Assembly (NCBI GenBank): GCA_000934665.2
Contig: KZ538070.1
Span: forward strand, 114,848-134,847
From: Catajapyx aquilonaris
Taxonomy: Eukaryota
Direction of reading: 5' to 3'
Length of the DNA stretch: 20,000 nt
Part shown: positions 1-16,768 of the stretch, piece by piece
Layout of the letters: each line of letters starts with the position of its first letter
Numbering within the stretch: position 1 is the first letter of the stretch
Position numbers and translations under genes: made by a program
Notes under the pieces: generated by a model
Database searches by the model: none
What the model was told of the DNA's origin: nothing
The model's input: the letters and a program-made list of their open reading frames with translations, nothing else

Positions 1-1182
1 GTACCCCTCAAAATTTTAACCCTGGCGTAACATAACCCCTAGCTTTTTGGACAAAAACCGCATGTACTAACTAACAAGTGGTCTCAAGCAGGTTTTCCAC
101 AGAAAAAAAGACTTAAGTGCAATTTTTGCACCGATTTTTTTTTTTTCCTGTAGGTATTGGTATACATACCCGAAACATACCCACAGCCAAGTGGCTCCAG
201 AAGAACCGCGGGGGAAAAAAATCCATTTCTTTTTTCCGGACTTTTTCCGGGGGAAAGTCCCGGAGCGTGAAAATGGCTCGTTAGGACTGTCTGCGGCCAA
301 AAAGTATTGTGCCGGGTTGAATGAAATCCGTTTGATGGCAGCTCTTCTCTTCTTCTTGGGAGCTTTTTTTTTTGTGAACGCTATCCGGGGAGAATCACGC
401 CCGGAGAAGAATCCGGAGCAATCCAACCTCCCTCCAAGATGAATCTCCTTTTGCCAATAACGGAAAAGCAGTAGAGAAAGCCGTTCTGCAAATACGAAAT
501 GAGTCTTGGATTTTCTGTGTGATCCGGATTCAAAATGGACGATCCGGGCACTGCCAGACACGGTCAGCCTCCTGTAAAGATAGACAGCAGACGGCAGGTG
601 TTGGCGCTCAAGCTGCTCAGGCACATCTTTGCATCTGCCCATGCTTAAAGATTTTTCCGCAACATGTTCCGCACCATTGTACCCCCATCATGGCCATACA
701 CACACACAAAAAAAAAATACCGGTACTGGGTTTGAGCCAAAGGTGCAAAGGTGCTGCCTCTTGCCCGATGCTAATTCAGTTACAAGTCCTGTGAGAGCTA
801 GGAAAAAATAGAGATGCAATTTCGTAGAACCACCTGCTGCTGCCTGGGACCAGTTGTCGCCTTCAATATGGAGACATTTCTTTTTTTTTAATCAGGAGGT
901 TTCGTGGGGGTTGGCAGAAGGTACCGTTGTCTTCGCTCTTCGAATGGCACGTATTGTGATGTAAATGAAGACGGAATATGAAACGGAGCCTTCAGGGGTC
1001 GGTTGAAAAGAATCATCCGGGCTTAAGCCACTTTTCCACAGGTTGAGTGCTTCCGACTGACAGTCTCAAAGAAAAGCAAGAAGCACTGTCTTAACCCAGT
1101 TCGGTTCAAAAAGCTTTTAGGCCCCATATTCGACGATCCGGACCTTCAAGGGGACGGACAAAGGAATATACTTGAATCTATC

Positions 1183-1545
1183 AGCCAATCACGCGTCTGG
1201 TACCCCAGAAGTGGCTCTTAGCCAATCACATAGCGGTCGGTATAGGCAGTAGCCAATCACGCGTCGTGTACCCCCCCAGAAGTCGCTCTTAGCCAATCAG
1301 GTAGCGTGTACCTTGTAGCCGGTATAGACAGTAGCCAATCACGCATCGTGTACCCCCCCCCCCCNCCCCCCCCCCAGAAGTCGCTCTTAGCCAATCAGGT
1401 AGCTTGTAACTTGTAGTCGGTATAGGCAGTAGCCAATCACGCGTCGTGTACCCCCCAGAAGTCGCTCTTAGCCAATCAGGTAGCTTGTACCTTGTAGCCA
1501 ATCACATATCGGCCGGTATATGCAGTAGCCAATCACATAGCGTGT
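1183..1545. repeat. Intronic imperfect minisatellite (~80-bp unit made of two ~40-bp subunits) with 10 AGCCAATCA boxes
   Basis: Unit agccaatcacgcgtcgtgta(c)nagaagtcgctcttagccaatcaggtagc..gtac/acttgtag.cggtatag.cagt repeated about 4 times; AGCCAATCA at 1183, 1220, 1251, 1291, 1333, 1389, 1431, 1470, 1496, 1527; ambiguous base at 1365 within a poly-C run. Confidence 0.93.
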
Positions 1546-2438
1546 ATCTCGGATAAACGTGCTTGAGACCATGTTCTTGTCAAATCCTGCAACTGTATGT
1601 CCCCTACCCATATGCCCTTTACAATGTTGGTACCCTTGCATGAAAAGGATTACTATATCTGACCCTTGGGAAGTTTTTTTTGCACACATTTTCCGACCCC
1701 TGCAGAATCTACCCCCAAATTTTCTCTGTCCTGAAGAATGTTGACATATAACTCGGACCGGGGAATGCGTTATTCCCAAAAGCATTACTGGTTGACCCCT
1801 TCTGCACTGGACACCAAGCAGTCACTCTGCTTGGAAGCAAGGAGTTATTTTTCCCTGAACAACCATTATGGTCGAAATATTATGGCCTTTTTCTGTTTAT
1901 TTTCAACCCCCCCTCTCTCTTGCTATATTTCCTGTGGCTCAGAGGCGGACCACTCTGATGCTACGAAATTTGAAAAAAAGAAACACCCTGTACCTTGGCT
2001 TTATGTTTTTTTTTTTTCTGTTTCCATGTTCTGTGTGTGCTTTCGTTGTTTGTTGTGTACCATTTTTTCATGGTTAGGAAAGAGTGTGAGGGCTATTAAG
2101 ACGCCTTTTTTCACACTAGTAGATGGTGTCATATTACCAAGTCGTCTCAATCTTTTTGGTCGATATAGTGCCCACAAGATGTTCCTGTGCATGGGGGGAA
2201 CTGTTGTGTATGGGGTTGGGTTCAAACATGGGCAGGGGTTGGAAGCACCAGCTGTGGATCCCAGCTGCAGATGAGGGGGGGAAATCCTTGGGAATAAGCT
2301 AACAAAATGTGCTCAATACTTTTTTGCAATTTAAATCTATGAAAGCACAGTTCTTTTAGTTTCTTTTTTTTAAAGTTATTGGCTTCCTATTTTTCCCCAT
2401 TTTTTAGTTTTCCTTTTTTTTCCAACCGTTATTTCCAG

Positions 2439-2545
2439 ATGTCATACCATGTCCAGCTGCAGTGTGGAGGTTACCAGTGATGATTTTGGGGATCCGTGTC
2501 CCGGCACCCATAAATACATAGAAGTGCATTATTCCTGTGCGATAG
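2439..2545 (+). CDS. Cirl: Lectin-domain exon variant A (candidate mutually exclusive exon)
   Basis: tttccag|A...ATAG|gttggt, 107 nt, phase 2 to 1, long pyrimidine tract upstream; encodes [35 protein letters not shown]. Confidence 0.85.
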
Positions 2546-5500
2546 GTTGGTTTCCATTTTTTTGCCTCTTTAAGGAGCCGGGAATTTTTTTGGGGGGAAA
2601 AAGTGGTTTGGATGTGGGCAACCTTCAGCTTTTGCTGTGAAAAAGCAGTGAAGCAAATCGCAGCTTGAGGAAGCACACATCCTAACCTGTTCTTTTTTTT
2701 CCAACTTCCCAGCTTCTTCGTTATAGGATTATAGGAGGAGGGGTCCGGCATTGTTGCGGGTAAGTCCGGACTCACCTATCGGCGTGCTGCAAGAAAATGA
2801 CCCAAATTTGTACAGCGTTAAAAACCTGGCAACAACACCTGCCCCCAAAAGCTTCCCGACCTTTCAACTAGATGCCGCTCGGCTCCGACCGCCTTTGTTT
2901 CCCCCCTCCTGCCTGACCACCTCCCCAGCATTTCCACCACCTCACAGAAGGAGGCGGAGGGCCATCGACCTTCAGAAGTTGGCTCTGAGCGAGGTCAGCT
3001 CTTTTTTGGAGGCTACTCCCGTTCATACCCACCCCCCTATTTCCAGCCCCTTCCGCCAGATGGCAGCACCTCCTTGTTGTCGATGGGTAAACGCGCCCGT
3101 AGCGACCAAACCCGGAACTATACCCGGGAAATTTGAAAATTTTGCAGCACGCCCCTCCGAAATTAGTTTTAAGTGTTGTGAGGGGGGAACGCAACCAAAA
3201 AAAAAATGTTTGGGTTTTTATCACCAGATGTAGCCAACAGCAGAACTGCAGCATCATTGCGACCACCAGTACGTTTGGTGATCCCTGTCCAGGTACTCTC
3301 AAGTACCTGGAAGCTCATTACCAATGCACACCAGGTATGACAATCACTCTTAGAGGTGCCAGTTGTAAAATGTAATGTTGGGCCACCCCCGACTTGTCCA
3401 GCCGGAGGAGGAATATATGGGTAGATAACAATGTTGGAAAAAAATGGCAGTTTCTGACACAACAATGCAATCACTCCGGTGGGGGATAAAAGCCAGAAAA
3501 TGATGTTCTGTGTTGTTAAGAGCGTGTTGACCAACTGTGCAGATTTACGATGACAGGCTTTAGTTTTTTTTTTCCTGGTTGTGACAAGTTGTAGCACTTG
3601 TCCTTTCCACTGGTCAAGAGAAAACTAGTAGACCTTGCGGTTGGGAGGGGGGACAAGTTTGGATGGTGACCGCCGGCTTTGCCTGCTAAATTTAACTGTA
3701 CTGTGAGACACCTACAAGCTGGTTGAGTAGGTGAGGAAGCACTTGAAGACACATGCATGCCAGCCGGGGATTAATAAGCTGCTGAATAATGGGCCGCCTC
3801 GTAGTTATATTTCTGATTTGTAAATGAAGCATTAATATGTGCCTTGCTGTCCTCAGTTAGTTAACAAATGAGGCGGCCGTAGGACTTGTAGATGCAATTT
3901 GATCATCCTGATGGTTACAACATCTTGTAAAGAGCTAGAAGTGACCTCTTGTTGTTGTTTTATCCAGCCACGAGCAGCACGACCACCAGGCCGCGGCCGC
4001 CGTGGCTACTCAGCACAGATCCGAGTCTCTGGAGCACTGCCAAACCTGCCACCCTCCGGCCGCTACCAGGAGGTGCCAACACTACCGGGTACTTGGATTC
4101 AAGCACCACGGTGGCCTCCAGCAGCGCCGGATTCAGCAGCACTGCCGCAACTACCACTGCCAGTACCACGACCACCACGACCACCACCACGACAACCCCT
4201 CCTCCCATCAAGGTGGTGCCACCCCGTCCAAAAGACTGGGAAGGTGGGAGGGACAGGGAGAGTCCAGTGCATGTGTGGGAGACCACGCAAGGCATGGTGG
4301 CAGTGTCCGCCACCAGCACAACATCCACCACCAGTCCATCCACCACTACGGTCACTGGTGACCCTCCAACCCCGAGGGTCCCAATGGCAACGTCATCCTC
4401 TCCGCAGCAGTGGGACGAAGCACGTCCAATGCCGCAGCACTGTGGTCCCACGGAGACCAGAGGTTTGTTCTGGAACTACACCCGGAGTGGAGAGGTGGCG
4501 GTGCAGCCATGCCCAGGCGGTGCAACAGGGTTCGCAAGGTGGAGGTGTGGGGGTAGTGACCCGGCCTCATGGGTTAGGCCGGCACCAGACCTGTCCGAGT
4601 GCAAGTCTGTGTGGCTCACCAGCCTAGAAACCAGGATACTAGAGGGGGACTCGATCATCAGCATCTCCAATGACTTGCTCCAGGTAAGAGGATGTACCAT
4701 GCTGCCACTACTCACATGCCTTTCTCACTTGGCTGGAAATTAACTTTTCATCTTATTACCACAGGTGACAAGCAGCAAGACCCTCTATGGTGGGGACATG
4801 CTGGCGACAGCCACCATCATAAAGCGGTTGGCAGAGAAGATGAACTCGGACCTGCAGACATTCCCGGACCCACTCCAGAGGGAGGCCATAATCACAGAGC
4901 TCCTCCAGAGTGTGGTCCAGACGGGCAGCAACCTCTTGGACAATCCTAGGCATGCACCATGGAGAGATCTAGGATACGATGAGCAGATGAGGGTGGCCAC
5001 TGCACTTCTCATTGGCCTGGAGGAAAACGCTTTTCTGCTTGCTGAAACTGTTGGGCGGGAGAAAACCGTCCTGCAGGCTGTCAAGAATATATGTACGTGT
5101 TGCAAATGGTTTCAGATGCTTTTGCAAATTTTGTTAAATTTTTCGCGAGTGATAACGTGTGCTGGAGTTTAACTGTCTAATTTTAAGTTTGCAACATTCT
5201 CTCTTTTCAGTGGCAACGGTGAAGGTAGTGGAGACCCGAAACATCCAGGAAGTGCGATTCCCACCAGCAGCTGCATTGGAACTGTGGGACTCAGCGGACA
5301 ACAGCTTAGTCCTCCCTGCAGAGGCTCTTTTGGAGAACAGTGACAATGGCTTGGTTCGTTTGGTTTTCTTTGCATACAACAACATGGAGGAGGTGCTCCA
5401 GCCCCATCCGGATGTGGCGGGTGGGACGGGATTGGTGTATGCAGAGAACAAGGACTTCCTGCAGAATGGAAGGTACAACGGCACACGCATACTCAACAGC

Positions 5501-8500
5501 AAGGTGATCTCTGCCTCACTGGGGAAAGGAAGGCACATTCAGCTTCCCGAGCCTGTGCTCATCACCTTCAGGCACATACGGACAGAGAATGTCAGTAATC
5601 CCTCCTGTGTCTTCTGGGATTACACCATGAGGTAAGCAGAGAGGCAACAGGTGCCCTAACAATTCAAATTATGGAGGATATATCTGTTTATATGGATAAT
5701 GTATTGTGAAAATGCACACGTAATCTGCTTTCAACCCACCAGTCATAAGTGTCAGTCTTTGTGAAATCACATTCTGAATATTTTCTAGCCTAGTTGAATC
5801 ACAACTGTCAGTATCTGTATTAACCTACGGAAAAGGGTTGGAGTTTGGTGGATTTTGAATAATGGCATCGGCCTTTTTATTTCAGTTCATGGTCCGAAGA
5901 AGGTTGCCAAGTGCTGGGGACGAACCACACGCACACCAGCTGTATGTGCGACCACCTGACCAACTTCGCCATACTGATGGACGTCCATGCCGTGCAAGTG
6001 CCCCTGCCACATGAGCTTGCCCTCTCTGTGATCACTTATGTTGGATGTGTGGTTTCTATCATATGTCTCGTCCTGGCAATATGTACTTTCCAGTTCTTCA
6101 GAGGACTCAAGGTAGATACACTCTGGGATCTTGGACACAATTTTGTTTATTTTTCCAAGTCTCTCCTCCCTCCCCTAAACTAATCCGATCGAGTGTTTCC
6201 CCCTAATGGAAGGAGACATTAATATTTAATGTGGGTTTTTTGGCTTTGTTGTTTAAGCTAGATATATTTTTTTGTGGCATCGAGTCATCAAAATTTGCCT
6301 GACGAAACAATAATTTAAAAATCAGGATAGAGTTAACAATATTTTTTGGAGAGGAGAAGAAGCCTCAGACTATGTTCATTCAATGCTACTGCTGATTTGC
6401 ATGGACATTTTTTGAAAATGTGACTAAAATGGACTCTTCCCCCCTGCCCCCCTGTTCCCGATTTGGTTTTCAGTCTGATCGCACCACTATCCATAAAAAT
6501 TTGTGCCTGTGCCTCCTTATTGCCGAAGTGCTCTTCTTAGCCGGGATTGGTCAGACTGACAAGCCAATCTTGTGTGGCATTGTGGCTGGATTGCTGCATT
6601 TCTTTTTCCTGTGTGCTTTTGCATGGATGTTTCTCGAAGGTTAGTGCCAGTCCATCCGTTTTTATGTAAGTGTTTACACGGGCGGGGTTTGACGCAAGAA
6701 AAAAAAAAGACATAGTCTGGCTTCATTTCTGCATATGTAAAGCATTTTGGGGGACCATTTCTCTCTCGACAGGTTTCCAGTTGTATGTCATGTTGATAGA
6801 AGTGTTTGAGGCGGAAAAGTCCAGGGTACGGTGGTACTACGCCATTGCTTATGGCGTTCCTACCATCATTGTGGCCGTGTCTGCCGTGGTGGACCCTTTC
6901 AGTTATGGCACTGAGCGCTACTGCTGGCTGAGGGCAGATAACTTCTTCATCTTTAGTTTTGTGGGACCAGTCATTACTGTGATACTAGTGAGTACCCATT
7001 CGTCATTTTACACTTTTTTCACTTTGAGCAAGTTGTAACACAAATCTTCTTTCTCGTTGCAGGCTAATCTAGTCTTCTTGAGCATGGCCATTTACATGAT
7101 GTGCCGCCATGCCAATGCCTCTGCCACCATGAAGAACAAGGAGCAATCGCGTCTTGCCACGGCCAGGTACTCATTCTTTGCCGTCTTCTACCTCGGTGGG
7201 CTGCAGGCCTCATGGGTGTTGGTAGAGTTGTCTTTTAACCAGGGATGGTGCTCAAACTCTTTGAGGTCTCCTCTACCATTAGATTTGGCATTGACATTCA
7301 TTGGTGTAAATCCTCCTTTTGTTCATACTATCAGACATTCCTGTATTTCAAGTACTCTTGGAAGATATGAAGATATGCTTATTTGCACATTAATTGCTCA
7401 ATACTTCATGTAACTGAATTTGGTTTATTTTTAACACAACTTAATTTCATTATTGCAAGTATGGTACTGCTATTTTACATGGAATGTGAAGTCCAACATC
7501 AAATTGAAATTCTGATCTTTCACCAAATAGTATTTGAAATGTTTTCCACTAGTCCGCAGTTTGCAGTTCCATATGTATCGTCAGTACCCATACTTGTGAC
7601 TGCTGCCTAATGACACCCTTATATTGCACAGAACAGAAATCGTCGTATCTGTTTCAATGGAAATGTCACCTCAGGTTTATGTGTACATTTGTGTACTCTT
7701 GGCCACACATGACAGTGAAGTGATGAGGCAAGTGTGTGAGAGCATGTGTGACATTCCATCAATACAGATATGAGCTGATTTTTGTTCCTTGCGGTATTTA
7801 CATGTATGGTTGAGCACTGCTGGTTTAAAGTGCATGGACACAAAGTACATTTGCACATAAAACACCGTAGATTTGATGGAGTCTTGTGGTTGTGGGACTA
7901 ACCTGTATTTTCTTGTTTTGCATGACTAGTGGGAAGGAGGAGAATGCCCTTCAGTCAAAGTTGAGGTCACATTTGTAAGCCAGTTTCCTTAATATTATTT
8001 TCTCCCCTGCAAAACTACCTCCAGTTTTTAAGTTTGATCTCTTTCTGTTTTTTCCTATCGCTCACCACTCCCATCCAAAAGTAGCAAGCACAACATGGCT
8101 TTTAGCAAGTAGCATTGCTCCAGCCATAGTGATCCGAGAGTGAGAGAGTACTCCCTAATAGCGTGCTGTTTTGCTTTGCAGGACATGGCTGCGTGGCGCA
8201 ATAATTCTTGTGTTCCTCCTGGGCCTTACGTGGACCTTTGGCCTGCTGTACTTGAACGAACAGTCAATGGTCATGGCCTATGTATTCACAGTGTTGAATA
8301 GTTTGCAAGGCCTCTTTATTTTTGTTTTCCACTGTGTTCAGAATGAGAAGGTAAGATCATTTGTGGGCTCCACACCTACCTTGTTATAGAGGCAGGGCTC
8401 TCCCTTTGTTGTTTTTTCAGTCTCATTTTTAAACTTGTACATAGTTTGAAAAGGGGGGGATGGAATAGGTTTAAGGCTGGATTGTAATGGCTGAAATAAT

Positions 8501-11500
8501 AAAGAGATGAGCAAAAGAAATTCCCTGAGATGATTTATTTCATCTGTGCAGAGGAATTGACAGCGGTTTCCCCCCATGCAATTGGCCTTTCTTTTTTCGA
8601 TTTATCCCTTACAGATGTCGCGACAAGAGTTATCACTGTGCGGCACAAACTGGATGTTTGTGCAGCACCGTTTTAGCTCTTGATGCGACATCTGTCCCCA
8701 TGCAGTTGAGTTATGAGTTGTCTCAGGGAATTTTTATTTGGTCTTTTCTGTTTTCACGTTTTTGTGCTTTGTGTTCGTACAGTTTTAAGTTACAGTCGAA
8801 CTTCCATCCTTTGAATCACAATTTCTTTACAGTTATGATGCACACGTTTTCTTTGTCCTTGACTTGGCCCGAAGAAACTCAACCAATTTTTCTGCGCCTT
8901 TTTAGACATTGTTGTTGCTGGACAACTTAATGAGATATGATCAGATAGTCTCATTCAGTTTCCATCGACCATCAATGCTGAAAACTGCTAAGAGAAATTT
9001 CTCAAGTTTCACTAAGCCAAGCTTAGATCAAATTTTGATTCTGGAAGTTCGAGTGTATTTGTTCCTTCTTTTTATTTTATTTTCCCTCCTCGCCTGGACC
9101 ATTGCAGGTGCGCAAAGAGTACCGCAAGTTTGCCCGCAGGCACCCGTGGCTCCCAGCCTGCCTGCAGGGCGCCAGCAAATCCTCCCCTGGAGGGAAGGAC
9201 CGGCGGAGATCCAGTCTCTACGCAGGGTCCAATGGCACCCCCTCTGCTCCAAACTCCCATAGCTCTGCCTGCAGCTCTACTGTCACTCCAGCAGGCGGCT
9301 CAAGCGTGGGTACCACAGTCGTTCAGTTGATCCCCACGCCCTCCCCTTCTCCGCCTCTACCCCACCCGCATCCGCACTCTCCCCAGCACCCCCACCTCCA
9401 CCAGCACCACTATCACCCCTACCACTCCCACCACCATCCGCCGCCTCCTCCCCAGCAGCATCACTACGGCAACCCAAGCCCGCGGCCTAGCGAGAATTAC
9501 TGCAGTCGTTGCAACCATTGTAAAGCGCAAGGTACATGATAAGTTTTGTAACCCTCCCTTGGCTCCCTGTATTTCTTCCGGGCGGTGTGTGGTGCTGGTG
9601 GAGGTCGGAGGTCGACATTTAAAAGGCAATTGGGTTGCTTTGGTGGTGCTGGGTTAGAGGTTTCTTCTAATGCTTACCTGTATGCACTAATTCCCCGCAA
9701 CATTGTCGGTAGCTCAACATCACCATGTAGACGTATAGAGAATCTGAGCTTGTCGTCAAGTTGTGAGAGAAAAACTGTGCTGTGCAGTATTAGAGGATGA
9801 ATGTTAGCATAATTATATGCCGCATAATTTTTTGATTGAGTGTCATAGACCAAGGTTCATATATTGAAGAATATTTGGCTGGTTATTAGTGGCAAGTGAT
9901 CTAAAAGTGACTGGAACAAAATAATGAACACACTCTTGCAAGAAATACCCAGTATCTTAGATTTCCATTGAAACAGACTGATCAAGTTGTACGGCAAATG
10001 GCCATTACTTATTGTCAGAAATTCCGTAATTTGAAGCCGTAAAGGTGATTTAGGCTGTTAATCTAGTTACGATCTGCCTAGTACTGGTTACAGAAGTTTC
10101 ATAAAATCTTATTGTCCAGGTCACCTACATTTCTAGGCTTTACTCACCACAATCCATTTTGTTTCGTCAGAGCAGGAGTGTCCCTGCAATCAGAAGAACT
10201 GGCTGACAGTGCATGGCATTAAAATGCCATCTTTGCATTATTTTATGCATGTAAGCGTACAAGGTTTAAAAAATTTTGTATGCATGTAATTTAACCTCCA
10301 AATTTTTGCTCATTCCCGAAATGGTTTGTCAGGCAATACATTACCTGAAGCGTATCATATTGAGAGGCTGAGTATGAGTTTGTTGTTTCTTTTGTTGGGT
10401 GGAGTGTTAGAGAGAGTTTTCCATAAATGTTGCATAACAAAAGTGCATTTTTGGGCCCGAAGCAGCTTTCAGTAACAGATAATATAAACAATTGCCAAGT
10501 GTCAGTTACAGAAAAAATTACAAATAATTATGCTGTAATTGTACAGGACAAATGGCCAAGTTTTTAAATTAAAAATGGTTTCGATTTGCAAACCTGTAAG
10601 TTGCGCTGGTCTTCCTTCACCTGTCCGGAACCTATCTGTGCTTATAAAATGTGTATCTTGTATGTTTTAGGCATAACTTTTATCCCTCTGTCCCCTTCAG
10701 CTGCAGCGTGTGTGGGGGAGCACCCGGAGCAGCATGCGCACCAGCCGCAGCAACCCAGGGCGGGTGGGCAGCAGCCCAGCTGCACAGCTGCCAACTCCTC
10801 AGCAAGGAGGGCAGCTCCCCCACCAGGCCCACCTCGTCCACACCCTTCGCACGGGGGGAGTGGCGGGGGCAACGGGGGGCCAGGGAGTGGGGGTGGCTCT
10901 GGCTCTAGGGGCGGGCCAAGGGCTCCCATCCACGCTCAACGACCAGGAAGTTGAGGTCAGTTTTCTGATTGAGACCCCACGCATGTGCACACATGTAAGC
11001 AAATGGTCCATGCATAAATGCCTTCTTTTCCTTGCAGAACTCATCATTCAAGTCATACAGCCGTGACTCTGGTAACGGCGGTTCAGAGCAGGAGGACTCC
11101 CCTAGGGCAGTCGCCTCAGGGGCTGGCCCAGGAGCAGCTGGTGTCGGGTCCACTTCCCGATCAGCTGCAAAAGACGCTCGCCGCCAGGCCTACCCTCCCC
11201 CTCCACACTCCTCATCTTCGTCCAACGCCTCGTCCAACTCGACTGCCACCAACAACCAGGCTGCCCCGGAGCTCTCAGTGGCTGAGTGTTGCAATGTCGA
11301 CCTATTCTCCGAGTACTGTCAGGAGATGCTGGGACTATCTGCTGATCTCTACCACTACAACCACCACCACCCCCCACCTCCACCTCCACCTTTACCATAC
11401 CCCACACAGCAACAGTACCCTCCTCAGCCGCAGTACCCTCCCCAGCAACAGTACCCTCCCCAGCCACAGTACCCTCCCATGCAACAATACCCTCCCATGC

Positions 11501-12072
11501 AACAGTACCCACAACCTTACCCCCCACAATACCAACACCAGTTGGGACCGCCCAAGAGAGGACGACGTGGCACCCTCCGTGCCACCAGCCCTTGGAACCA
11601 CACGTACACCGAGATTGAACTAGGGGCACAGCCAGGAGCAGAAGAGGGACCAGTGTATGAGGAGATTGAGCGGAATGACATCCTGCAGGTGTCAGATATG
11701 TCAGACGAGGAGGGGCGGCGGCAGAGCAGTGACGTCAGCCGGCAGTCATCACGTGGGTACGGCGATCACCACCCCCTAATTCCCTATGCCCCAGCCCCTC
11801 CGTCACCTTCCTCCCACCGCCACCACCACTCTCCCCGTTCTTCCCCTCATTCCCCCCGCTCCCCATCCCCACACGTCAGGCTCAAGGGCGTTCCCAGGAG
11901 GTACCCAGCACCTCCTGGGGTCGAGGTGTATGGGTTTGCACCTGAGAACTGCGTGACAGTGGCAGTGCTCAATGGGGACAGGGTTGTATGCCACCTTCAG
12001 CCGCAGGGGCCACCCCTGGATTCCGGAAGAAGGGCAGGCGGAGGAGTGGTGCCGCCGTTCAGTGAGTGCTGA
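2439..12072 (+). CDS. Cirl: Latrophilin / Cirl-type adhesion GPCR (ADGRL family), 5'-partial, multi-exon
   Basis: GT-AG exons with consistent phases: [2439-2545 or 3228-3334], 3968-4683, 4765-5092, 5211-5631, 5886-6111, 6474-6639, 6773-6987, 7063-7166, (7930-7974), 8182-8350, 9108-9305, 10701-10955, 11038-12072 (TGA). Translation shows the SUEL motif [11 protein letters not shown].E.HY.C, a Thr-rich stalk, an HRM domain ([20 protein letters not shown]), GAIN/GPS ([25 protein letters not shown]), aGPCR 7TM motifs ([45 protein letters not shown]) and a tail with [16 protein letters not shown] ending FSEC. No olfactomedin domain, as expected for invertebrate latrophilins. Confidence 0.96.
3228..3334 (+). 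CDS. Cirl: Lectin-domain exon variant B (candidate mutually exclusive exon)
   Basis: tcaccag|A...CCAG|gtatga, 107 nt, phase 2 to 1; encodes [35 protein letters not shown]. Confidence 0.92.
3968..4683 (+). CDS. Cirl: Cirl exon: Ser/Thr/Pro-rich stalk, hormone-receptor (HRM) domain and start of GAIN
   Basis: tatccag|CC...CAG|gtaaga; lies in ORF 3949-4743; [13 protein letters not shown], poly-Thr, HRM cysteines and tryptophans. Confidence 0.93.
4141..4197 (+). repeat. Coding ACN trinucleotide repeat (poly-Thr, mucin-like stalk)
   Basis: actgccgcaactaccactgccagtaccacgaccaccacgaccaccaccacgacaacc encodes [19 protein letters not shown]. Confidence 0.85.
5886..6111 (+). CDS. Cirl: Cirl exon: GPS autoproteolysis motif (HL/T, cut between codons at 5958/5959), Stachel peptide and TM1
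   Basis: ttcag|T TCA TGG...CTC AAG|gtagat; [22 protein letters not shown] followed by hydrophobic [20 protein letters not shown]. Confidence 0.95.
7930..7974 (+). CDS. Cirl: 45-nt in-frame cassette micro-exon in intracellular loop 3
   Basis: Branch-point-like GACTAAC 7896-7902, pyrimidine tract, ctag| acceptor, |gtaagc donor; phase 2 to 2 matching both neighbours; encodes (S)[14 protein letters not shown](L). Confidence 0.8.
9306..9531 (+). CDS. Cirl: Alternative 5'-splice-site extension of the helix-8/tail exon (His/Pro-rich then Cys-rich)
   Basis: Frame stays open past the AGC|gtgggt donor to a second donor CAAG|gtacat (phase 1) or to TGA at 9537-9539; composition resembles the coding tail. 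Confidence 0.6.
10171..10250 (+). CDS. Cirl: Candidate 80-nt alternative tail exon (phase 1 to 0)
   Basis: TACTCAC 10141-10147, ttttgtttcgtcag| acceptor, |gtaagc donor; open frame (E)[26 protein letters not shown]; restores frame between the 9531 donor and the 10701 acceptor. Confidence 0.55.
11038..12072 (+). CDS. Cirl: Cirl terminal exon: low-complexity cytoplasmic tail
   Basis: ccttgcag|AAC; ORF 11032-12072; [35 protein letters not shown]-terminal FSEC. Confidence 0.92.
   Translation, partial: NSSFKSYSRDSGNGGSEQEDSPRAVASGAGPGAAGVGSTSRSAAKDARRQAYPPPPHSSSSSNASSNSTATNNQAAPELSVAECCNVDLFSEYCQEMLGLSADLYHYNHHHPPPPPPPLPYPTQQQYPPQPQYPPQQQYPPQPQYPPMQQYPPMQQYPQPYPPQYQHQLGPPKRGRRGTLRATSPWNHTYTEIELGAQPGAEEGPVYEEIERNDILQVSDMSDEEGRRQSSDVSRQSSRGYGDHHPLIPYAPAPPSPSSHRHHHSPRSSPHSPRSPSPHVRLKGVPRRYPAPPGVEVYGFAPENCVTVAVLNGDRVVCHLQPQGPPLDSGRRAGGGVVPPFSEC
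11407..11514 (+). repeat. Coding 18-bp tandem repeat x6 (QQQYPP-like hexapeptide)
   Basis: Six imperfect copies of cagcaacagtaccctccc: [36 protein letters not shown]. Confidence 0.92.
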
Positions 12073-13690
12073 GGGTAGGCTCTACACAAGACAGTGCACC
12101 ATTTTTTTATGTGGACTAAGATATCAGTGTAAATAGTGTACAGGTGGAGTGCAGCATTTTTTCCCCCCCCAACCTCACTCCTTACGTCCTGGTTTGGTAC
12201 GGAACTCATTTTACACAAAGATGCCATGAAATAGCTTTGTCTCTCTTTTGTTTTTGTTTGTCCATTTTCCAAACCCGAGTTCTCCACAGAATGTGCCTGT
12301 TGTGTAAACCTGTGGATTGTGCTGGGGGGACTTTTTTTTTTAAAGAAAACTGTTTTTACCTGTTCTTTTTAAACGGATCAGACGGAACTTACGGAGGTCA
12401 TGCTGTGTTCTTTTATGTCACATGGACAGACCCTTTTTTTTGTAAAGGAGTGTAAGTGATTGTATGTTATACATGATGTGTACATTACTGCTTGCATAAA
12501 GTAAATTATTTGATTATAAAGCTGTGTGTGTCTGTTTTTTCCCAACTAAATTATTTGTCTAACAGTTACCAACCTCAACACATTCCTTACTACTTCTCAG
12601 TGCAATAGCTCTCTATAAAAATTGTCATTTCAATAACCAAATTGGTCCATGTTCCAACTAATTGGCATCTTCATTTGCAGTTGGAGCTTCAGACCTTCAG
12701 TTGGTGACTGCATGTGAAGTGAGTTGTATGTTGAAAAGAATTCAACCTGCGAAACTGTCCTGACAAAATTTTTCCACAGGGATGGTATTTCCAAAAGACC
12801 ATGAGATGTGCATGGCTTGAGACCAACCCTGCGTCTGGCGTTGGATCGCTTGCAAAGATGGGAAGCACGTCGCAAACTTAATTGCTGAGGTATTGGAATC
12901 TTGTTAACATTCAAGTGATAATATAATTAGTTATGTTGTTTCAGCAACATATTAAACTTGCTTATCGGTAGATTAAGCATACTGTATAGAATTGCTAAAC
13001 TGTAGTTATAAATACAAAGTCAGGGAGTGGCAGAGGTAATGTGGATGTGTGTAATTGATTTTCGTAGGTTAAGAAATTTAGGAAAATTGAGAGAACGTAA
13101 TAATTGAAGTGCTGAGTTTCCTATGCCCTGGTAGTGCCCCTTGAAAATCATTGCATAACGGGTGGGCTAAGTAGCAAGCTGCACAAGGTCATGGCATCAC
13201 ACTACAACTTTGAATCTCAATAAAACATATTGCTATCGCTTGTTCAATTAAATGCTTAGGGCTCTCGTTGTATAACACCACACATTTATAAATATGTTGT
13301 ACTAATTGCTATCACAGATTAGTGAATTGTTTCCAACAGTGAACAAAAATGATATCATCTACAAATAGTGGCATACTAATGGAGTACAGGTAAAAGTACA
13401 TTGCCTATTGTTTTTCAAATATATTGCGGTACTTATAATATGCCTGCAGGCTGAAAACGTGGTGACATCAGGTGTGGTCAGTGTGGCAATACTTAAGATG
13501 ACACTTGAAGCTCAGTTGATATGGTCAAGTAGGATGATGGATGGCCATAATCATTGCAATTGATTAATTGCATATGGCGTTATAGACCTTTGGCAAGTGG
13601 GGAGTCAGCCTCCAAATCATAGTGTCGTGCGTGACTGGGTCAATCAGGGCTCTTTCACTCCTGGGAGCGAGGCTGAGGCACACTTGAGGC

Positions 13691-15950
13691 ATGGGGGCCA
13701 AGGTAGAAGCAGTGTTGAGTCTGACAGGGGGATTTGGTCAATGGCACTGGACGGTTGTAATCCTGGCAGCCCTGCCTGGAATATCCTTCATTTCCTCCAG
13801 GTTGGGCATGATGTTTGTAGCAGTTGTGCCTGACCACTGGTGCCTCATTCCGCAACTCAAAGAGGCTAACTGGAGTGTATCTGACATCAAAAAGGCTGCC
13901 ATTCCAATGTATGTAACATGCAGTCTTGCACTTCTGTGTGAAACTTAACGGTATTTCCTGGTGATACTGAACTGCTCCTGCCACATGTATGGGCAGCATG
14001 TTCGGCAGAAATGTATCGATTGCTCTTGCATGTTCAACAGGGACATGCAGAGGGGTGAAGGAGTTTACAGCCAGTGCTACATGTACCAGAGGAATTACAC
14101 TGCTCTGGTTGATTTGGGCCCAAACGACACAAACTGGGAACCACCTGATGAAATACAAACAATCGGGTGCCGACAATGGGAGTTCGACCACAGTGTCTTC
14201 AAATCCAGCATAGTCAGCGATGTTAGTGGCGTTCACACTAGATATTGCTGGTATTTAATAAGGTTTTAATGAAGTAAACCTTCATTTACAGTGGGAACTT
14301 GTGTGTGAGCGGCTTCCTATCCTGGCGACTATTCACAGTGCTTTTTCAATAGGATTACTGATCAGTTCCATTTTCAGTGGACCACTGTCAGACAAGTGAG
14401 TTATTGAAATGCATGCACATATCATTTGAAGAGATGCACACATTATGCTCAGGATTGCAGGTATGGAAGACGCACCTGTGCTGTGGTTGGCACTGTGGTC
14501 ATGGTGGTTGTGTCAGTGGTCAACATCTTCTCAGTCAACTACGTCATGATGACTGCTGTGCGTCTGGTCATAGGGTATTGCACCTTCTGCATATATTCCT
14601 GCTGCTTTGCGTTAGGTAGGCCTGCATTATTTCCGATTGGTCTACGCAACATGCCTACTGACTTATTTTATGACCATTATAGTGGCGGAGCTGTGTCCCG
14701 ACGAGAAGAGGGCGTCTGTGATGTTTCTGTTTGACTTTTTCCCTGGTTGCGGTCGGTGGATTGCTGCTGCAGTGGCCTACTTCATTAGAGACTGGAGATA
14801 TCTCCTTCTGGCCTACTGTCTGCCCATTTTTACATTTTTATCGTTTTATTGGTAAGAGTGAAACAGAATGGTGTGCTCCTGGCCACAGGTTAAAAATAAC
14901 CCAGCGCTAAACGCAATCAGGTACCTGCCAGAATCTCCAAGATGGCTTCTGGTTAAAGGGCGCACAACAGAGGCAGGAAATGTTATAACTAGGGCGGCTA
15001 AAGGTAACAAGATGCCAGCTCCTGATGCGGATGTGCTTCACAGGTTACTGGAAGCCAGCAAAGAGGAGCAGGAGGAGGACAAGAAAGGTGCAGACTTTCA
15101 CATCCTGTGTTCACTATAAGTGAACAGCAGTTCTCTTTTCCCTCCAGCATCATTTTCAGGGATGATGAGATCAGTCACTGCATTTGTCAAGACAAAGGAG
15201 ATGCGTCGAAGGAGCATCCCAATGTTCTTCTGTTGGTTTGTCATCGCCTTTGTCTCCTATGGGCTCTTGTTTCATTTTTCCACATTACCACTCAACTTGT
15301 ACCTGTTGCATGTGATCAACGGGGTAGTTGTGAGCCTGACCCGAGCATTCATCGTGGTATGGCCACTGCCAGACTACCTTGGCAGAAAGACATGCTTTTT
15401 GGGCTGCCTCGTGTTAGGTGGCCTGTCTGGACTGCTTATTCTGGCTGTCCCTGAAGGTTGGATCCGTCACACTCCTAACATTTGGCAATTTTTTAAAAGA
15501 TATTATTGTTTCAGATATGGAGTGGCTGTTGGTGACCTTGTCATTGGCTTGCAGTGGTTTTGTGTCTGAAACCTTTAGTTTGGTGTACTTATACACAGCA
15601 GAAATGTTCCCAACAGAAGTGAGGAACACATCTATTTCTGTAGGTTCTGTGTTCGCTAGATGTGGAGGGATATCTGCACCGTTCATTGCCAACTACTTGG
15701 TAAGTGTGACAGTGCTTAACATAATGAAGGAACTGATTTTGTTTCTTTACAATAAATTCTCTTCTATGTGTAGTACACATTTCATTACTCAATCCCATCG
15801 GCCATGTTTGGTGGATTTTCTGCACTAGCAGCAGCGGCATGCTGCCTTTTACCGGAGACCTACGGAAAGCATATGCCAGAAACAATTGCTGAATTGGAGG
15901 CCTCGTGTGACAAGGCTAACAAGGACACTTGTAATGGCAATCAAAAATAA
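13691..15950 (+). CDS. SLC22-family (organic cation/anion transporter-like, MFS) protein, paralogue 1, ~554 aa, 9 exons
   Basis: Exons 13691-13908, 14041-14221, 14292-14395, 14461-14615, 14683-14851, 14921-15087, 15148-15456, 15515-15699, 15774-15950 join in frame (1665 nt). Motifs GGFGQWH, PDHWC, SIVSDWELVC, GPLSDKYGRR, DWRYL, LPESPRWL, YTAEMFPTEVR, LPETYG. Confidence 0.95.
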
Positions 15951-15951: not shown

Positions 15952-16768
15952 AATTACAAAATAAGGATGGGAATAGTTTTATCGAACTTTACCATAAAAC
16001 GACAGATAACTTAATTGTATATTGATGAGGTAACCTAAGTGGCTTGCATAGGGATATGGCTGAGGGTTTCTATTCTTGTCAGATTAAAGGTAGTAGTTGC
16101 ATTATCCATGTTCATGATGAGTTTCAATAGGCTTGAGATAAGTAGGAAGTGAGCTTGTGAATCAGATTTATGATTGGTTAAGTGTACGTACTGTCACTTT
16201 GACTTACAAGCCATAACAATAAGAATCCCAAGCAGCTTACCATGTACTAGTAAATGACTTTAAAATATTTAAACAAACTGAGCAGAAGACATTCTACATT
16301 GTAGCACTGTAGAGAAGTACCGCTTATGATGTCAGGTTTTATCATAATTAATATGTTAGAAATATTTTATGGTTAAGGTAATATAAACTACCTGATTCAT
16401 GCTGGAAAGAAGGCGCAAAACAACATATCACTAGATAATCACAAATGTCTGTTCATGTTATCAATATTAGGACATGGACTTATGGACCACGCAACGATAT
16501 TTTCTATGCCTGCGCAGAAAGTCAATGAACGTTGTGTTTCTAACGCCTTATGCAACAGTCGGAGGTTTGTACCATATAGATTACTTCAATCAACAGAAAT
16601 GGACAAACTACTGCCATATTGCAAGATGTGTCTGTTTACATAATCATTGTGTGCAGATAACCTGTCATGTTGACTAATTTCGGACTAAGCAGGAAGTGGG
16701 CACCAGCATTTGTAAGGGTTGGTTAGGATCTGTTAGATAACCAATCTTTTGAAGGGGCAGTCTGAGAC

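What the first reader, a model, noticed from the sequence alone, without database searches (positions are those of the whole stretch)
2439..3334. Duplicated, apparently mutually exclusive exons give the latrophilin lectin domain two swappable halves
Seen: two exons of exactly 107 nt with the same phases (2 to 1) and canonical splice sites. Both encode the C-terminal half of a SUEL/rhamnose-binding lectin fold, with 18/35 identical residues by my count (cysteines and [14 protein letters not shown] retained, no stops). Because 107 is not a multiple of 3, including both shifts the frame and stops at 4625-4627; skipping both also shifts it. No first-half lectin exon is visible between them, so this is not a tandem two-domain arrangement. 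Variant A has an acidic stretch (VEVTSDD); variant B is neutral there and has an N-glycosylation sequon (NCS). Established: the latrophilin lectin domain is a ligand-binding surface (teneurins in vertebrates). Inference: a Dscam-like binary switch of adhesion specificity in an adhesion GPCR. I do not know whether this has been described for this lineage.
Basis: partly seen in the sequence, partly recalled or inferred. Interest (0 to 1): 0.85.

Follow-up and report, generated by a model that had tools for sequence, protein, structure and literature searches.

The report
Swappable lectin exon pair in latrophilin
Two alternative copies of one exon let an arthropod latrophilin receptor build the last third of its lectin domain in two versions; the arrangement is old and already appears in gene catalogues of other insects and of crayfish, but I found no paper that describes it.

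Summary
Exons A (2439-2545) and B (3228-3334) are both 107 nt with AG/GT sites and the same phase. Both encode the C-terminal third of the SUEL/RBL lectin domain of a latrophilin/Cirl gene, and 18 of 35 residues are identical. Using both exons or neither breaks the reading frame.

No RNA data could be obtained for this organism, so mutual exclusion rests on comparison:
- Nine metagenome loci from other insect-like genomes carry the same A-then-B pair, each exon 107 nt with the same splice-site flanks, in introns that otherwise do not align.
- Public isoform sets of 11 insect species, including Periplaneta, Zootermopsis and Tribolium, contain both an A-type and a B-type isoform of one gene. So does a second Cirl gene in three decapods. 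In seven of these 14 species a same-length pair differs only in this segment.
- A-type exons evolve faster than B-type (mean identity 0.58 versus 0.82). They carry acidic residues before the DPC motif in 12 of 12 insects, against 0 of 12 B-type exons.

The pair is therefore an ancient, conserved, almost certainly mutually exclusive exon pair. That it switches ligand specificity is inference. It appears in annotation, but seven literature searches found no description.

The parts
2439..2545 (+). Exon A: 107 nt, alternative ('A-type') C-terminal third of the SUEL/RBL lectin domain. It has an acidic stretch before the DPC motif and a non-consensus donor, GTTGGT.
   Evidence: It is 73% identical to the A-type of Periplaneta and 77% to the A exon of Cherax gene 2. 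It aligns at 75-76% nucleotide identity to nine metagenome loci whose introns do not align.
3228..3334 (+). Exon B: 107 nt, the canonical ('B-type') version of the same segment. It is neutral and Ser/Thr-rich, carries an NCS sequon, and has the donor GTATGA.
   Evidence: It is 91% identical to the B-type of Periplaneta, Zootermopsis and Cryptotermes. 87 database proteins match it at E <= 1.
2546..3227 (+). Intron between A and B (682 nt). It holds no lectin-like reading frame and is too long for steric exclusion.
3335..3967 (+). Intron between exon B and the next constant exon (633 nt)
3968..4683 (+). Next constant exon: Ser/Thr/Pro-rich stalk and hormone-receptor (HRM) domain. It is in frame only after exactly one of A or B.
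   Evidence: (HRM 30.9 bits)
2412..2426 (+). Candidate selector 1: a T-rich 15-mer ending 12 nt before exon A's acceptor, complementary to 3433-3447
   Evidence: This is a lead only.
2694..2705 (+). Candidate selector 2: the same 12-mer (TTTTTTTCCAAC), 149 nt downstream of exon A
   Evidence: This is a lead only.
3433..3447 (+). Candidate docking site: the complement of both selectors, 99 nt downstream of exon B
   Evidence: This is a lead only, and it is not matched in the related loci.
4765..12069 (+). Rest of the same gene (exon limits approximate): GAIN, GPS, 7tm_2 and a long Pro/Gln/His-rich tail ending at the stop after 12069

Best explanation
The window holds most of a latrophilin/Cirl adhesion-GPCR gene of a hexapod-like arthropod. 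Its lectin (RBL) domain is split over a constant exon outside the window and one of two tandem, homologous 107-nt exons. Splicing takes exactly one of them.

What the sequence shows:
- A or B alone keeps the frame.
- Both together or neither gives a premature stop, so such transcripts are unproductive.

What the swap changes: the swapped piece is the last ~35 residues of the ~100-residue fold. Both versions keep the four cysteines and the DPC / GT-KY-E motifs, so the fold is probably preserved. The retained sugar pocket is inferred, from recalled knowledge of which motifs line it. The surface strand between the second cysteine and DPC changes, acidic in A and neutral Ser/Thr in B. The residue between GT and KY also changes, His in A and Leu in B.

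Age: the A/B pair probably predates the split of hexapods from decapods and ostracods. B is the slowly evolving default form and A is a fast-evolving alternative.

Inferred, not shown: the two forms differ in what the lectin domain binds, whether a glycan or a protein partner such as a Toll-family receptor. Exon choice may be helped by a weak donor on A and possibly by competing RNA pairings.
For: Anatomy and frames.

Gene identity: the exons give HRM, GAIN, GPS and 7tm_2. The best named hits are latrophilin Cirl.

Conservation of the pair:
- 9 of 79 metagenome loci carry an A-like exon 933-948 nt upstream of a B exon.
- In those loci both exons are 107 nt with AG/GT and the same flanks...ttatttcag|ATGT...TAG|gttggt for A, and tttttatcaccag|ATGT...CCAG|gtatga for B.
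- blastn of window 1-4700 against six of those loci aligns exon A, exon B and, where the locus reaches that far, coding parts of the next exon. Apart from these there are only short low-complexity runs, and the introns do not align.
- Among five distinct loci, pairwise divergence is 3.1% for exon A and 1.1% for exon B, against 5.3-7.1% for introns.

Annotated isoforms of one gene:
- Same-length pairs that differ only in this segment: Periplaneta X1/X2 (residues 94-127), Zootermopsis X1/X2 (110-143), Nicrophorus X1/X2 (99-132) and Chelonus X1/X2 (97-130).
- Cryptotermes has a 963-residue model of each type. In Onthophagus, 2 of 13 isoforms are alternative.
- Both types among the isoforms of Agrilus, Tribolium castaneum, Zophobas, Cotesia typhae and Nomia.
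- In a second Cirl gene of decapods: Procambarus (residues 101-136), Cherax (116-151) and Panulirus (125-160).

All 12 insect-type A exons and 12 B exons keep four cysteines.

Class differences:
- Mean pairwise identity is 0.58 among A exons and 0.82 among B exons.
- Acidic residues lie between Cys2 and DPC in 12 of 12 A exons and 0 of 12 B exons.

Tree of the 35-residue exons: the B forms, including window B, decapod gene-2 B' and chelicerates, group at 90/81 support. Window A lies nearest to Cherax gene-2 A and the Darwinula A-type gene.

Deep divergence makes chance survival of an unused exon implausible. The C-terminal exon is only 35-38% identical to the best insect hits that cover the whole exon.
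Against: - There is no RNA evidence for this organism. No RNA run was listed, so no reads were laid.
- The isoforms of relatives are database gene models, and I did not see the evidence behind them.
- One model (Cotesia congregata, P0294) carries both variants in tandem.
- Several listed isoform sets show no A-type: Ischnura 5 of 5 B; Hetaerina 5 of 5 B; Anabrus 4 of 4 B; Lycorma 2 of 3 B and one without a match; decapod gene-1 sets; Dermacentor 14 of 15 B and one without a match.
- One insect-like locus (L063) has about 4 kb on each side of its B exon and no A copy.
- Among close relatives, exon A shows 4 non-synonymous against 3 synonymous variable sites. Constraint on A is therefore weaker than on B.
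- The tree rests on 35 columns. The A forms do not form one supported clade, and the Nicrophorus alternative exon falls among the B forms.
- The protein-protein contacts named in the passages I read for LPHN3-teneurin-2 lie in the constant part. Those named for LAT-1-TOL-1, F69, D79 and the long loop, appear to lie there too, though I did not map that paper's numbering onto the chain.
Confidence: 0.85

Rival explanations
1. Exon A is a dead or dying duplicate in this genome. Only B is spliced in, and A is an intronic relic.
For: A has a non-consensus donor, GTTGGT. A-type exons evolve faster than B-type. Among close relatives A shows 4 non-synonymous against 3 synonymous variable sites. No RNA evidence exists for this species.
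Against: - The frame is open, all four cysteines are kept, and the Pfam score equals that of B.
- The acceptor and even the odd donor match those of nine loci from a distant lineage whose introns do not align.
- It is 73% identical to the Periplaneta A-type and 77% to the Cherax A-type, while the gene's tail is only 35-38% identical to the best insect hits that cover the whole exon.
- A-type isoforms are annotated in 14 species.
Confidence: 0.03
2. A and B are used together in one transcript, for example through an unseen small exon that restores the frame. This would give a protein with two C-terminal lectin halves.
For: A 46-nt stretch (2713-2758) has a T-rich tract plus CAG before it and GTAAGT after it. 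Since 107+46+107 has the same remainder mod 3 as 107, the frame would be restored. One database model (P0294) has both variants in tandem.
Against: Reading A into the 46-nt stretch hits a stop at codon 39. No N-terminal lectin half lies between A and B: 0 of 19 queries matched one, and the profile search found none. Direct A+B stops at 4625-4627. In the four insect and three decapod same-length pairs, the isoforms carry one variant only.
Confidence: 0.02
3. Both exons are used and mutually exclusive, but the swap has no effect on ligand choice. A is kept for another reason, for example tissue-specific regulation of receptor level through unproductive splicing, or use from an internal start that gives N-terminally truncated products.
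For: - The contacts named in the passages I read for the solved teneurin complex lie in the constant half. Those named for the Toll-receptor complex appear to as well, though I did not map that numbering.
- Both variants keep the motifs I recall as lining the sugar pocket.
- Periplaneta X6 (P0157) starts in the intron just before the A exon and lacks the first lectin half.
- Cherax has annotated skip-both isoforms with a shifted start.
Against: There are class-specific, conserved differences. A carries acidic residues in 12 of 12 insects and B in 0 of 12. The residue between GT and KY is His in the window, Blattodea, decapod gene-2 and Darwinula A exons and varies in other insects. It is Leu in 9 of 12 B exons and His in the other three. 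The NCS sequon is kept in B. Full-length isoforms with signal peptide, first lectin half and A are annotated in Periplaneta, Tribolium and Cotesia.
Confidence: 0.1

Closest known systems
Annotated Cirl isoform pairs in other arthropods, for example Periplaneta americana X1/X2, Zootermopsis nevadensis X1/X2, Tribolium castaneum X3/X5, and Procambarus, Cherax and Panulirus 'latrophilin Cirl' X1/X2
   Same: The same position in the protein, the same 35-36-residue segment, and the same two sequence classes. At the DNA level, in nine related loci, the same order (A then B), the same 107-nt length, the same phases and the same splice-site flanks.
   Different: Those are database gene models of other species. 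The window's species has no close relative in the searched collection: the tail exon is at most 38% identical to hits that cover the whole exon. In decapods the pair sits in a second, more divergent Cirl gene, and its B' variant has drifted.
Dscam1 variable exon clusters (features recalled, not tested here)
   Same: Tandem homologous exons of equal phase, one chosen per transcript, that replace part of an extracellular binding domain while keeping its fold.
   Different: There are two variants, not dozens, and no evidence of homophilic recognition. A docking/selector pairing is only a candidate in the window and is not seen in related loci. Here exclusivity is already enforced by the reading frame.
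Vertebrate latrophilin alternative exon between the lectin and olfactomedin domains, which modulates teneurin binding (passages of PMC6422961 citing Boucard et al. 2014)
   Same: Alternative splicing at the N-terminal adhesion module of a latrophilin, proposed to tune ligand binding.
   Different: That is a short cassette insert outside the lectin fold. This is a swap of the last third of the fold itself. Invertebrate latrophilins have no olfactomedin domain, and teneurin binding is doubted for them.
Described splice variants of Drosophila Cirl: 7TM versus 1TM by intron retention, a truncated 'RBLneo' N terminus, and a 4-residue GAIN deletion (passages of bioRxiv 10.1101/2023.01.11.521585 and PMC13197933)
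   Same: The same gene family, and alternative splicing that changes receptor make-up, including the N terminus.
   Different: None of the passages I read mentions two alternative versions of the lectin domain's C-terminal part. I did not examine the Drosophila gene itself.

Membership tests
SUEL/rhamnose-binding lectin domain (Pfam PF02140) | Profile match above the curated threshold | tested here: met
   Each 35-residue exon peptide alone scores 38.5 bits against a cut-off of 31.4, at profile positions 47-80 of 80. Both align to residues 68-102 of the 106-residue solved RBL domain of latrophilin 1 (2jx9) and to other latrophilin and fish lectin chains.
SUEL/rhamnose-binding lectin domain (Pfam PF02140) | Four cysteines of the C-terminal part at conserved spacing, plus the DPC and KY-E motifs | tested here: met
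   Four cysteines are present in all 12 A-type and 12 B-type insect exons compared.
SUEL/rhamnose-binding lectin domain (Pfam PF02140) | N-terminal part of the domain (YGR motif, four more cysteines) | not testable with these tools
   That exon lies upstream of the window: 0 of 19 queries matched it, and no whole genome is held. It is present in the relatives' full-length proteins.
SUEL/rhamnose-binding lectin domain (Pfam PF02140) | Carbohydrate binding | not testable with these tools
   This needs a binding assay.
Latrophilin / Cirl (ADGRL) adhesion GPCR | Domain order lectin - HRM - GAIN/GPS - secretin-type 7TM | tested here: met
   Scores were HRM 30.9 bits; GAIN 68.7 and 39.4; GPS 47.7; 7tm_2 27.9-72.3 bits on successive exons.
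Latrophilin / Cirl (ADGRL) adhesion GPCR | Closest relatives are named latrophilin/Cirl | tested here: met
   By summed tblastn bits the gene is most like insect Cirl (Periplaneta 1344), then decapod gene 1 (about 1100), then decapod gene 2 (about 845).
Mutually exclusive exon pair | Adjacent, homologous exons of equal length and phase | tested here: met
   Both are 107 nt in the same phase, with 18 of 35 residues identical and 682 nt between them.
Mutually exclusive exon pair | Joint inclusion or joint skipping is unproductive | tested here: met
   The stops fall at 4625-4627 and 4359-4361.
Mutually exclusive exon pair | Mature transcripts carry exactly one of the two | not testable with these tools
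   No RNA run was listed for this sequence. In relatives, annotated isoforms carry one or the other in 14 species. One model carries both (P0294).
Docking-site/selector RNA mechanism (Dscam type) | One intronic site complementary to a site next to each variable exon | tested here: inconclusive
   The 12-mer occurs at 2415-2426 and 2694-2705, and its complement at 3433-3444. These are the only 3 exact copies in 20 kb. With up to 1 mismatch there are 4 matches against 0.35 expected, and 0 of 200 shuffles reach 4. The shared-site statistic is 12, reached by 0 of 300 shuffles. The sequence is low-complexity (T/A runs), which the shuffles do not model.
Docking-site/selector RNA mechanism (Dscam type) | The arrangement is conserved in relatives | tested here: not met
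   In loci L051 and L050 the same statistic is 9, reached by 218 and 231 of 300 shuffles.

The most novel reading that the evidence does not exclude
The A/B exon pair is a binary ligand switch at least as old as Pancrustacea in the only latrophilin of most insects. B, almost invariant, would serve a conserved partner. A, acidic and fast-evolving, would serve a second, co-evolving partner, for example another Toll-family receptor or a different glycan. Exon choice in this species would be set by two copies of a 12-mer competing for one complementary site downstream of exon B. Decapods would have partly divided the two forms between duplicated genes. On this reading the switch went unnoticed because it is absent from the Drosophila descriptions I read. 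It would be directly testable in Tribolium or cockroach.
Probability: 0.25. Interest if true: 0.7.

Novelty: new member of a known kind. Interest (0 to 1): 0.47.

Why it matters
What the lectin domain of invertebrate latrophilins binds is still open. Teneurin binding is doubted, and Toll-family receptors have recently been proposed.

A conserved natural pair of lectin variants offers a ready-made experiment: same receptor, two binding modules. It exists in tractable species such as Tribolium, cockroach and crayfish.

Work on Drosophila Cirl may also miss part of the family's repertoire, because the descriptions I read mention no such pair.

For genome annotation, automated models can skip or merge these exons. 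One model with both exons and several skip-both models were seen.

Tried and rejected
- **RNA evidence.** The look-up of sequencing runs on window 2400-5700, kind rna: no RNA holder listed, none was listed.
- **Own genome.** None is held. The upstream lectin exon and the species could therefore not be found.
- **Earlier notes of this scan.** Nothing turned up by place, words or sequence.
- **First protein search.** I repeated it with 15 more bases on each side.
- **Species placement.** The tail exon finds nothing above 38% identity among hits that cover the whole exon. The lineage stays 'hexapod-like pancrustacean'.
- **Docking/selector idea in the related loci.** It is not better than chance there.
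- **Frame-restoring mini-exon (2713-2758).** It has an in-frame stop.
- **Third exon copy.** None is present in the window or in six long loci.
- **Pfam on six ORF pieces of the downstream tandem genes.** There were no hits at E <= 0.01.
- **Structure prediction.** Not run. The tools return no surface or contact map, so it could not tell which face the swap alters.
- **Literature.** Seven searches found no paper describing alternative lectin-domain exons in Cirl or latrophilin. I read passages only of PMC6422961, PMC13197933, PMC6629964, PMC7195488 and 10.1101/2023.01.11.521585. For 10.1101/2023.05.04.539414 I read passages plus section 10. Subscription journals are not covered. Supplements were not opened and may list such isoforms.
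Full report
**What is in the window.** The + strand from about 2.4 to 12.1 kb holds most of an adhesion-GPCR gene. Translated exons give a hormone-receptor (HRM) domain. They then give GAIN, GPS and a secretin-type seven-helix domain in order. Nineteen full-length latrophilin/Cirl proteins align exon by exon. By summed bits the gene is most like insect Cirl (Periplaneta 1344, Gryllus 1287, Ladona 1285). It is less like the main decapod gene (about 1100) and least like a second decapod gene (about 845). Its tail exon is at most 35-38% identical to named proteins that cover the whole exon. The species therefore has no close relative in the searched collection, and I can only call it a hexapod-like pancrustacean. 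No whole genome is held for it.

**Checking the observation.** Exon A is 2439-2545 and exon B is 3228-3334.
- Both are 107 nt, follow an AG and precede a GT. Both start with one base that completes a codon and end with one base that starts the next.
- The peptides share 18 of 33 aligned residues, which is 18 of 35 overall.
- Each alone passes Pfam's threshold for the SUEL lectin domain, matching the last 34 of 80 profile positions.
- Each aligns to residues 68-102 of the 106-residue solved lectin domain of latrophilin 1. 'Half' is therefore better read as 'the last third'.
- Either exon joined to the next exon (3968-4683) stays open for 274 codons. Both together stop at 4625-4627, and neither stops at 4359-4361.
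- No N-terminal lectin half lies in the window: 0 of 19 queries matched one. A profile of the exon family finds exactly two copies, at 76.3 and 69.0 bits, with the next best at 4.7.

**Is exon A alive?** I could get no RNA data, because no run was listed. The test had to be comparative.

A scan of metagenome contigs with an alignment of A-type peptides returned 79 loci. Nine of them (L035, L036, L043, L048, L050-L053, L055) carry an A-like exon 933-948 nt upstream of a B exon. That B exon's peptide is identical, or in two loci one residue different, to that of Gryllus, Periplaneta and Cryptotermes. In all nine, both exons are 107 nt with AG/GT. The flanks match the window's, including the unusual donor GTTGGT after A, and the acceptor tttttatcaccag and donor GTATGA around B.

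At the DNA level, blastn of window 1-4700 against six of these loci aligns exon A (75-76% over 123 nt) and exon B (79-81% over 126 nt). Where the locus reaches that far it also aligns coding parts of the next exon. Apart from these there are only short low-complexity runs, and the introns do not align. An unused exon would not keep its frame, its cysteines and both splice sites across that distance.

Among five distinct versions of these close relatives, exon A differs by 3.1%, exon B by 1.1% and the introns by 5.3-7.1%. The seven variable sites in A are 4 non-synonymous and 3 synonymous. A is constrained, but less than B.

**Are the exons alternatives of each other?** Public protein sets answer this for relatives. 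In each of the following, two isoforms of one gene have the same length and differ only within this segment:
- Periplaneta X1/X2, residues 94-127.
- Zootermopsis X1/X2, residues 110-143.
- Nicrophorus X1/X2, residues 99-132.
- Chelonus X1/X2, residues 97-130.

Cryptotermes has two 963-residue models, one of each type. In Onthophagus, 2 of 13 isoforms are alternative. Both types also occur among the isoforms of Agrilus, Tribolium castaneum, Zophobas, Cotesia typhae and Nomia.

Among the 80 further proteins brought in, a simple rule gives these counts:

| Class | Count |
|---|---|
| B | 43 |
| Alternative | 20 (one, Artemia, looks B-like by eye) |
| Both | 1 |
| No match in the first 400 residues | 16 |

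The alternative type also stands as the representative for a mayfly (Cloeon), a lacewing (Chrysoperla), a sawfly (Orussus) and several more beetles.

In decapods the swap sits in the second Cirl gene: Procambarus (residues 101-136), Cherax (116-151) and Panulirus (125-160). Cherax also has annotated skip-both isoforms that start in a shifted frame. The ostracod Darwinula has an A-type gene and a B-type gene on different contigs.

**Against, or neutral.**
- No A-type appears among the listed isoforms of Ischnura (5 of 5 B), Hetaerina (5 of 5), Anabrus (4 of 4) or Lycorma (2 of 3 B, one without a match). The same holds for the decapod main-gene sets and for Dermacentor (14 of 15, one without a match).
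- Locus L063 has about 4 kb on each side of its B exon and no A.
- One model (P0294) has both variants in tandem.
- These are gene models, and I did not see the evidence behind them.

**Age.** A tree of the 35-residue exons is weak, with only 35 columns. It groups window B, all insect and crustacean B forms, the decapod B' forms and the chelicerate forms at 90/81 support. Window A lies outside that group, nearest to Cherax gene-2 A and Darwinula A. Window A is 67-73% identical to Blattodea A, 48-61% to holometabolan A, and 48-55% to any B. The simplest reading is one duplication before hexapods and decapods split, followed by losses. This is inferred, not shown, and the Nicrophorus alternative exon falls among the B forms in the tree.

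**What the swap changes.** Both classes keep four cysteines in 12 of 12 insect pairs, along with the DPC and GT-KY-E motifs. From memory, not from a call, two of these cysteines bond to the constant part and the motifs line the sugar pocket.

The class differences are:

| Feature | A-type | B-type |
|---|---|---|
| Mean pairwise identity | 0.58 | 0.82 |
| Exons with acidic residues between the second cysteine and DPC | 12 of 12 insects (three in the window) | 0 of 12 |
| Residue between GT and KY | His in the window, Blattodea, decapod gene 2 and Darwinula; varies in other insects | Leu in 9 of 12, His in 3 |
| NCS sequon | Not class-wide | Kept across pancrustacean B forms |

The acidic rule does not hold for the decapod pair.

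**Does this alter partner choice?** That is untested.
- In the passages I read of PMC7195488, the LPHN3 residues named at the teneurin-2 interface (S38, R44, D49, D67, the C36-C66 bond) lie in the N-terminal, constant part.
- In bioRxiv 10.1101/2023.05.04.539414 (passages and section 10), the C. elegans lectin domain binds the Toll-like receptor TOL-1 through a long 24-residue loop, and F69A abolishes binding. By position these appear to lie in the constant part too, but I did not map that paper's numbering onto the chain.
- PMC13197933 (passages) lists Toll-8 as a Drosophila Cirl partner.

The specificity-switch idea is therefore plausible but unsupported by known contacts.

**How exclusion is enforced.**
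- Shown: the reading frame. Both or neither gives a premature stop.
- Ruled out: steric hindrance, since the intron is 682 nt. Both introns also start with GT and end with AG, although I did not test formally for minor-spliceosome signals.
- Suggestive: the weak donor on A, identical in a distant lineage, fits a regulated exon.
- A lead only: the 12-mer TTTTTTTCCAAC lies 12 nt before exon A's acceptor and again 149 nt after exon A. Its complement lies 99 nt after exon B.
  - These are the only three exact copies in 20 kb.
  - The minimum-energy fold pairs the first with the third.
  - 0 of 300 shuffles reach the shared-site statistic.
  - However, the sequence is a T/A run plus five bases, and shuffles do not model such runs.
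  - The related loci show nothing better than chance, with 218 and 231 of 300 shuffles reaching the observed value.

**Comparison with what is known.** The kind, a mutually exclusive exon pair in an arthropod surface receptor, is well known. This very pair stands in public isoform catalogues. Seven full-text searches found no paper that describes it. The passages I read on Drosophila Cirl splicing list 7TM/1TM forms, a truncated 'RBLneo' N terminus and a 4-residue GAIN deletion, but no lectin swap. I did not examine the Drosophila gene itself.

**Verdict.** The functional reading remains a hypothesis. I file it as a new member of a known kind, of moderate interest. Its main value is a natural handle on what the invertebrate latrophilin lectin domain binds.

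Noticed in passing
window 1170-1560: There is a tandem array of ~98-nt units (1.9 copies at 94% match, with further degenerate ~39-nt units). Each unit carries AGCCAATCA-type motifs and a long C run that contains the window's only N. It lies about 0.9 kb upstream of exon A, inside the large intron.
   Followed up: no
window 2713-2758: This 46-nt stretch is preceded by a second copy of the T-rich 12-mer plus CAG and followed by a consensus GTAAGT inside an 18-nt palindrome. Its length would restore the frame between A and B, but it carries an in-frame stop. It may be a decoy or poison exon, or chance.
   Followed up: partly
window 13600-15830 and 16700-19000, + strand: Two tandem copies of a multi-exon gene lie here. 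Matching ORF pieces are 74% identical over 111 residues. The pieces look like a membrane transporter to me (recalled, not tested). A Pfam scan of six pieces gave nothing at E <= 0.01.
   Followed up: partly
window 11407-11510: An 18-nt repeat (5.8 copies) encodes a Gln/Tyr/Pro-rich run in the receptor's cytoplasmic tail. A His/Pro-rich run lies at 9362-9408.
   Followed up: no
L054 1-290: This is a mite-like contig, judged by its B exon, which is close to that of Oppia. It has a second, very divergent copy of the lectin segment (DEC in place of DPC, and about 16 extra residues) that ends only 48 nt before the 107-nt B exon. Reading the two together hits a stop. It may be an independent or older alternative exon in chelicerates.
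   Followed up: partly
P0004/P0100 against P0123 and similar; P0007 against P0073: Decapods (Panulirus, by different contigs) and the ostracod Darwinula have two Cirl genes. The more divergent decapod gene keeps the A/B' exon pair. No A-type appeared among the listed isoforms of the main gene.
   Followed up: partly
P0098, P0104 (Cherax); P0157 (Periplaneta); P0294 (Cotesia congregata): Database models show the failure modes. Skip-both isoforms start in a shifted frame. One isoform starts in the intron just before exon A. One model has both variants in tandem.
   Followed up: partly
L001, L002, L004, L015, L017, L019: These are intron-less contigs of about 3.4-4.4 kb with open frames of 873-1147 residues. 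They encode whole latrophilins whose lectin domain ends in an A-like segment (GT-x-KYVEVHY). They look like transcripts of other, unnamed crustacean-like animals.
   Followed up: no
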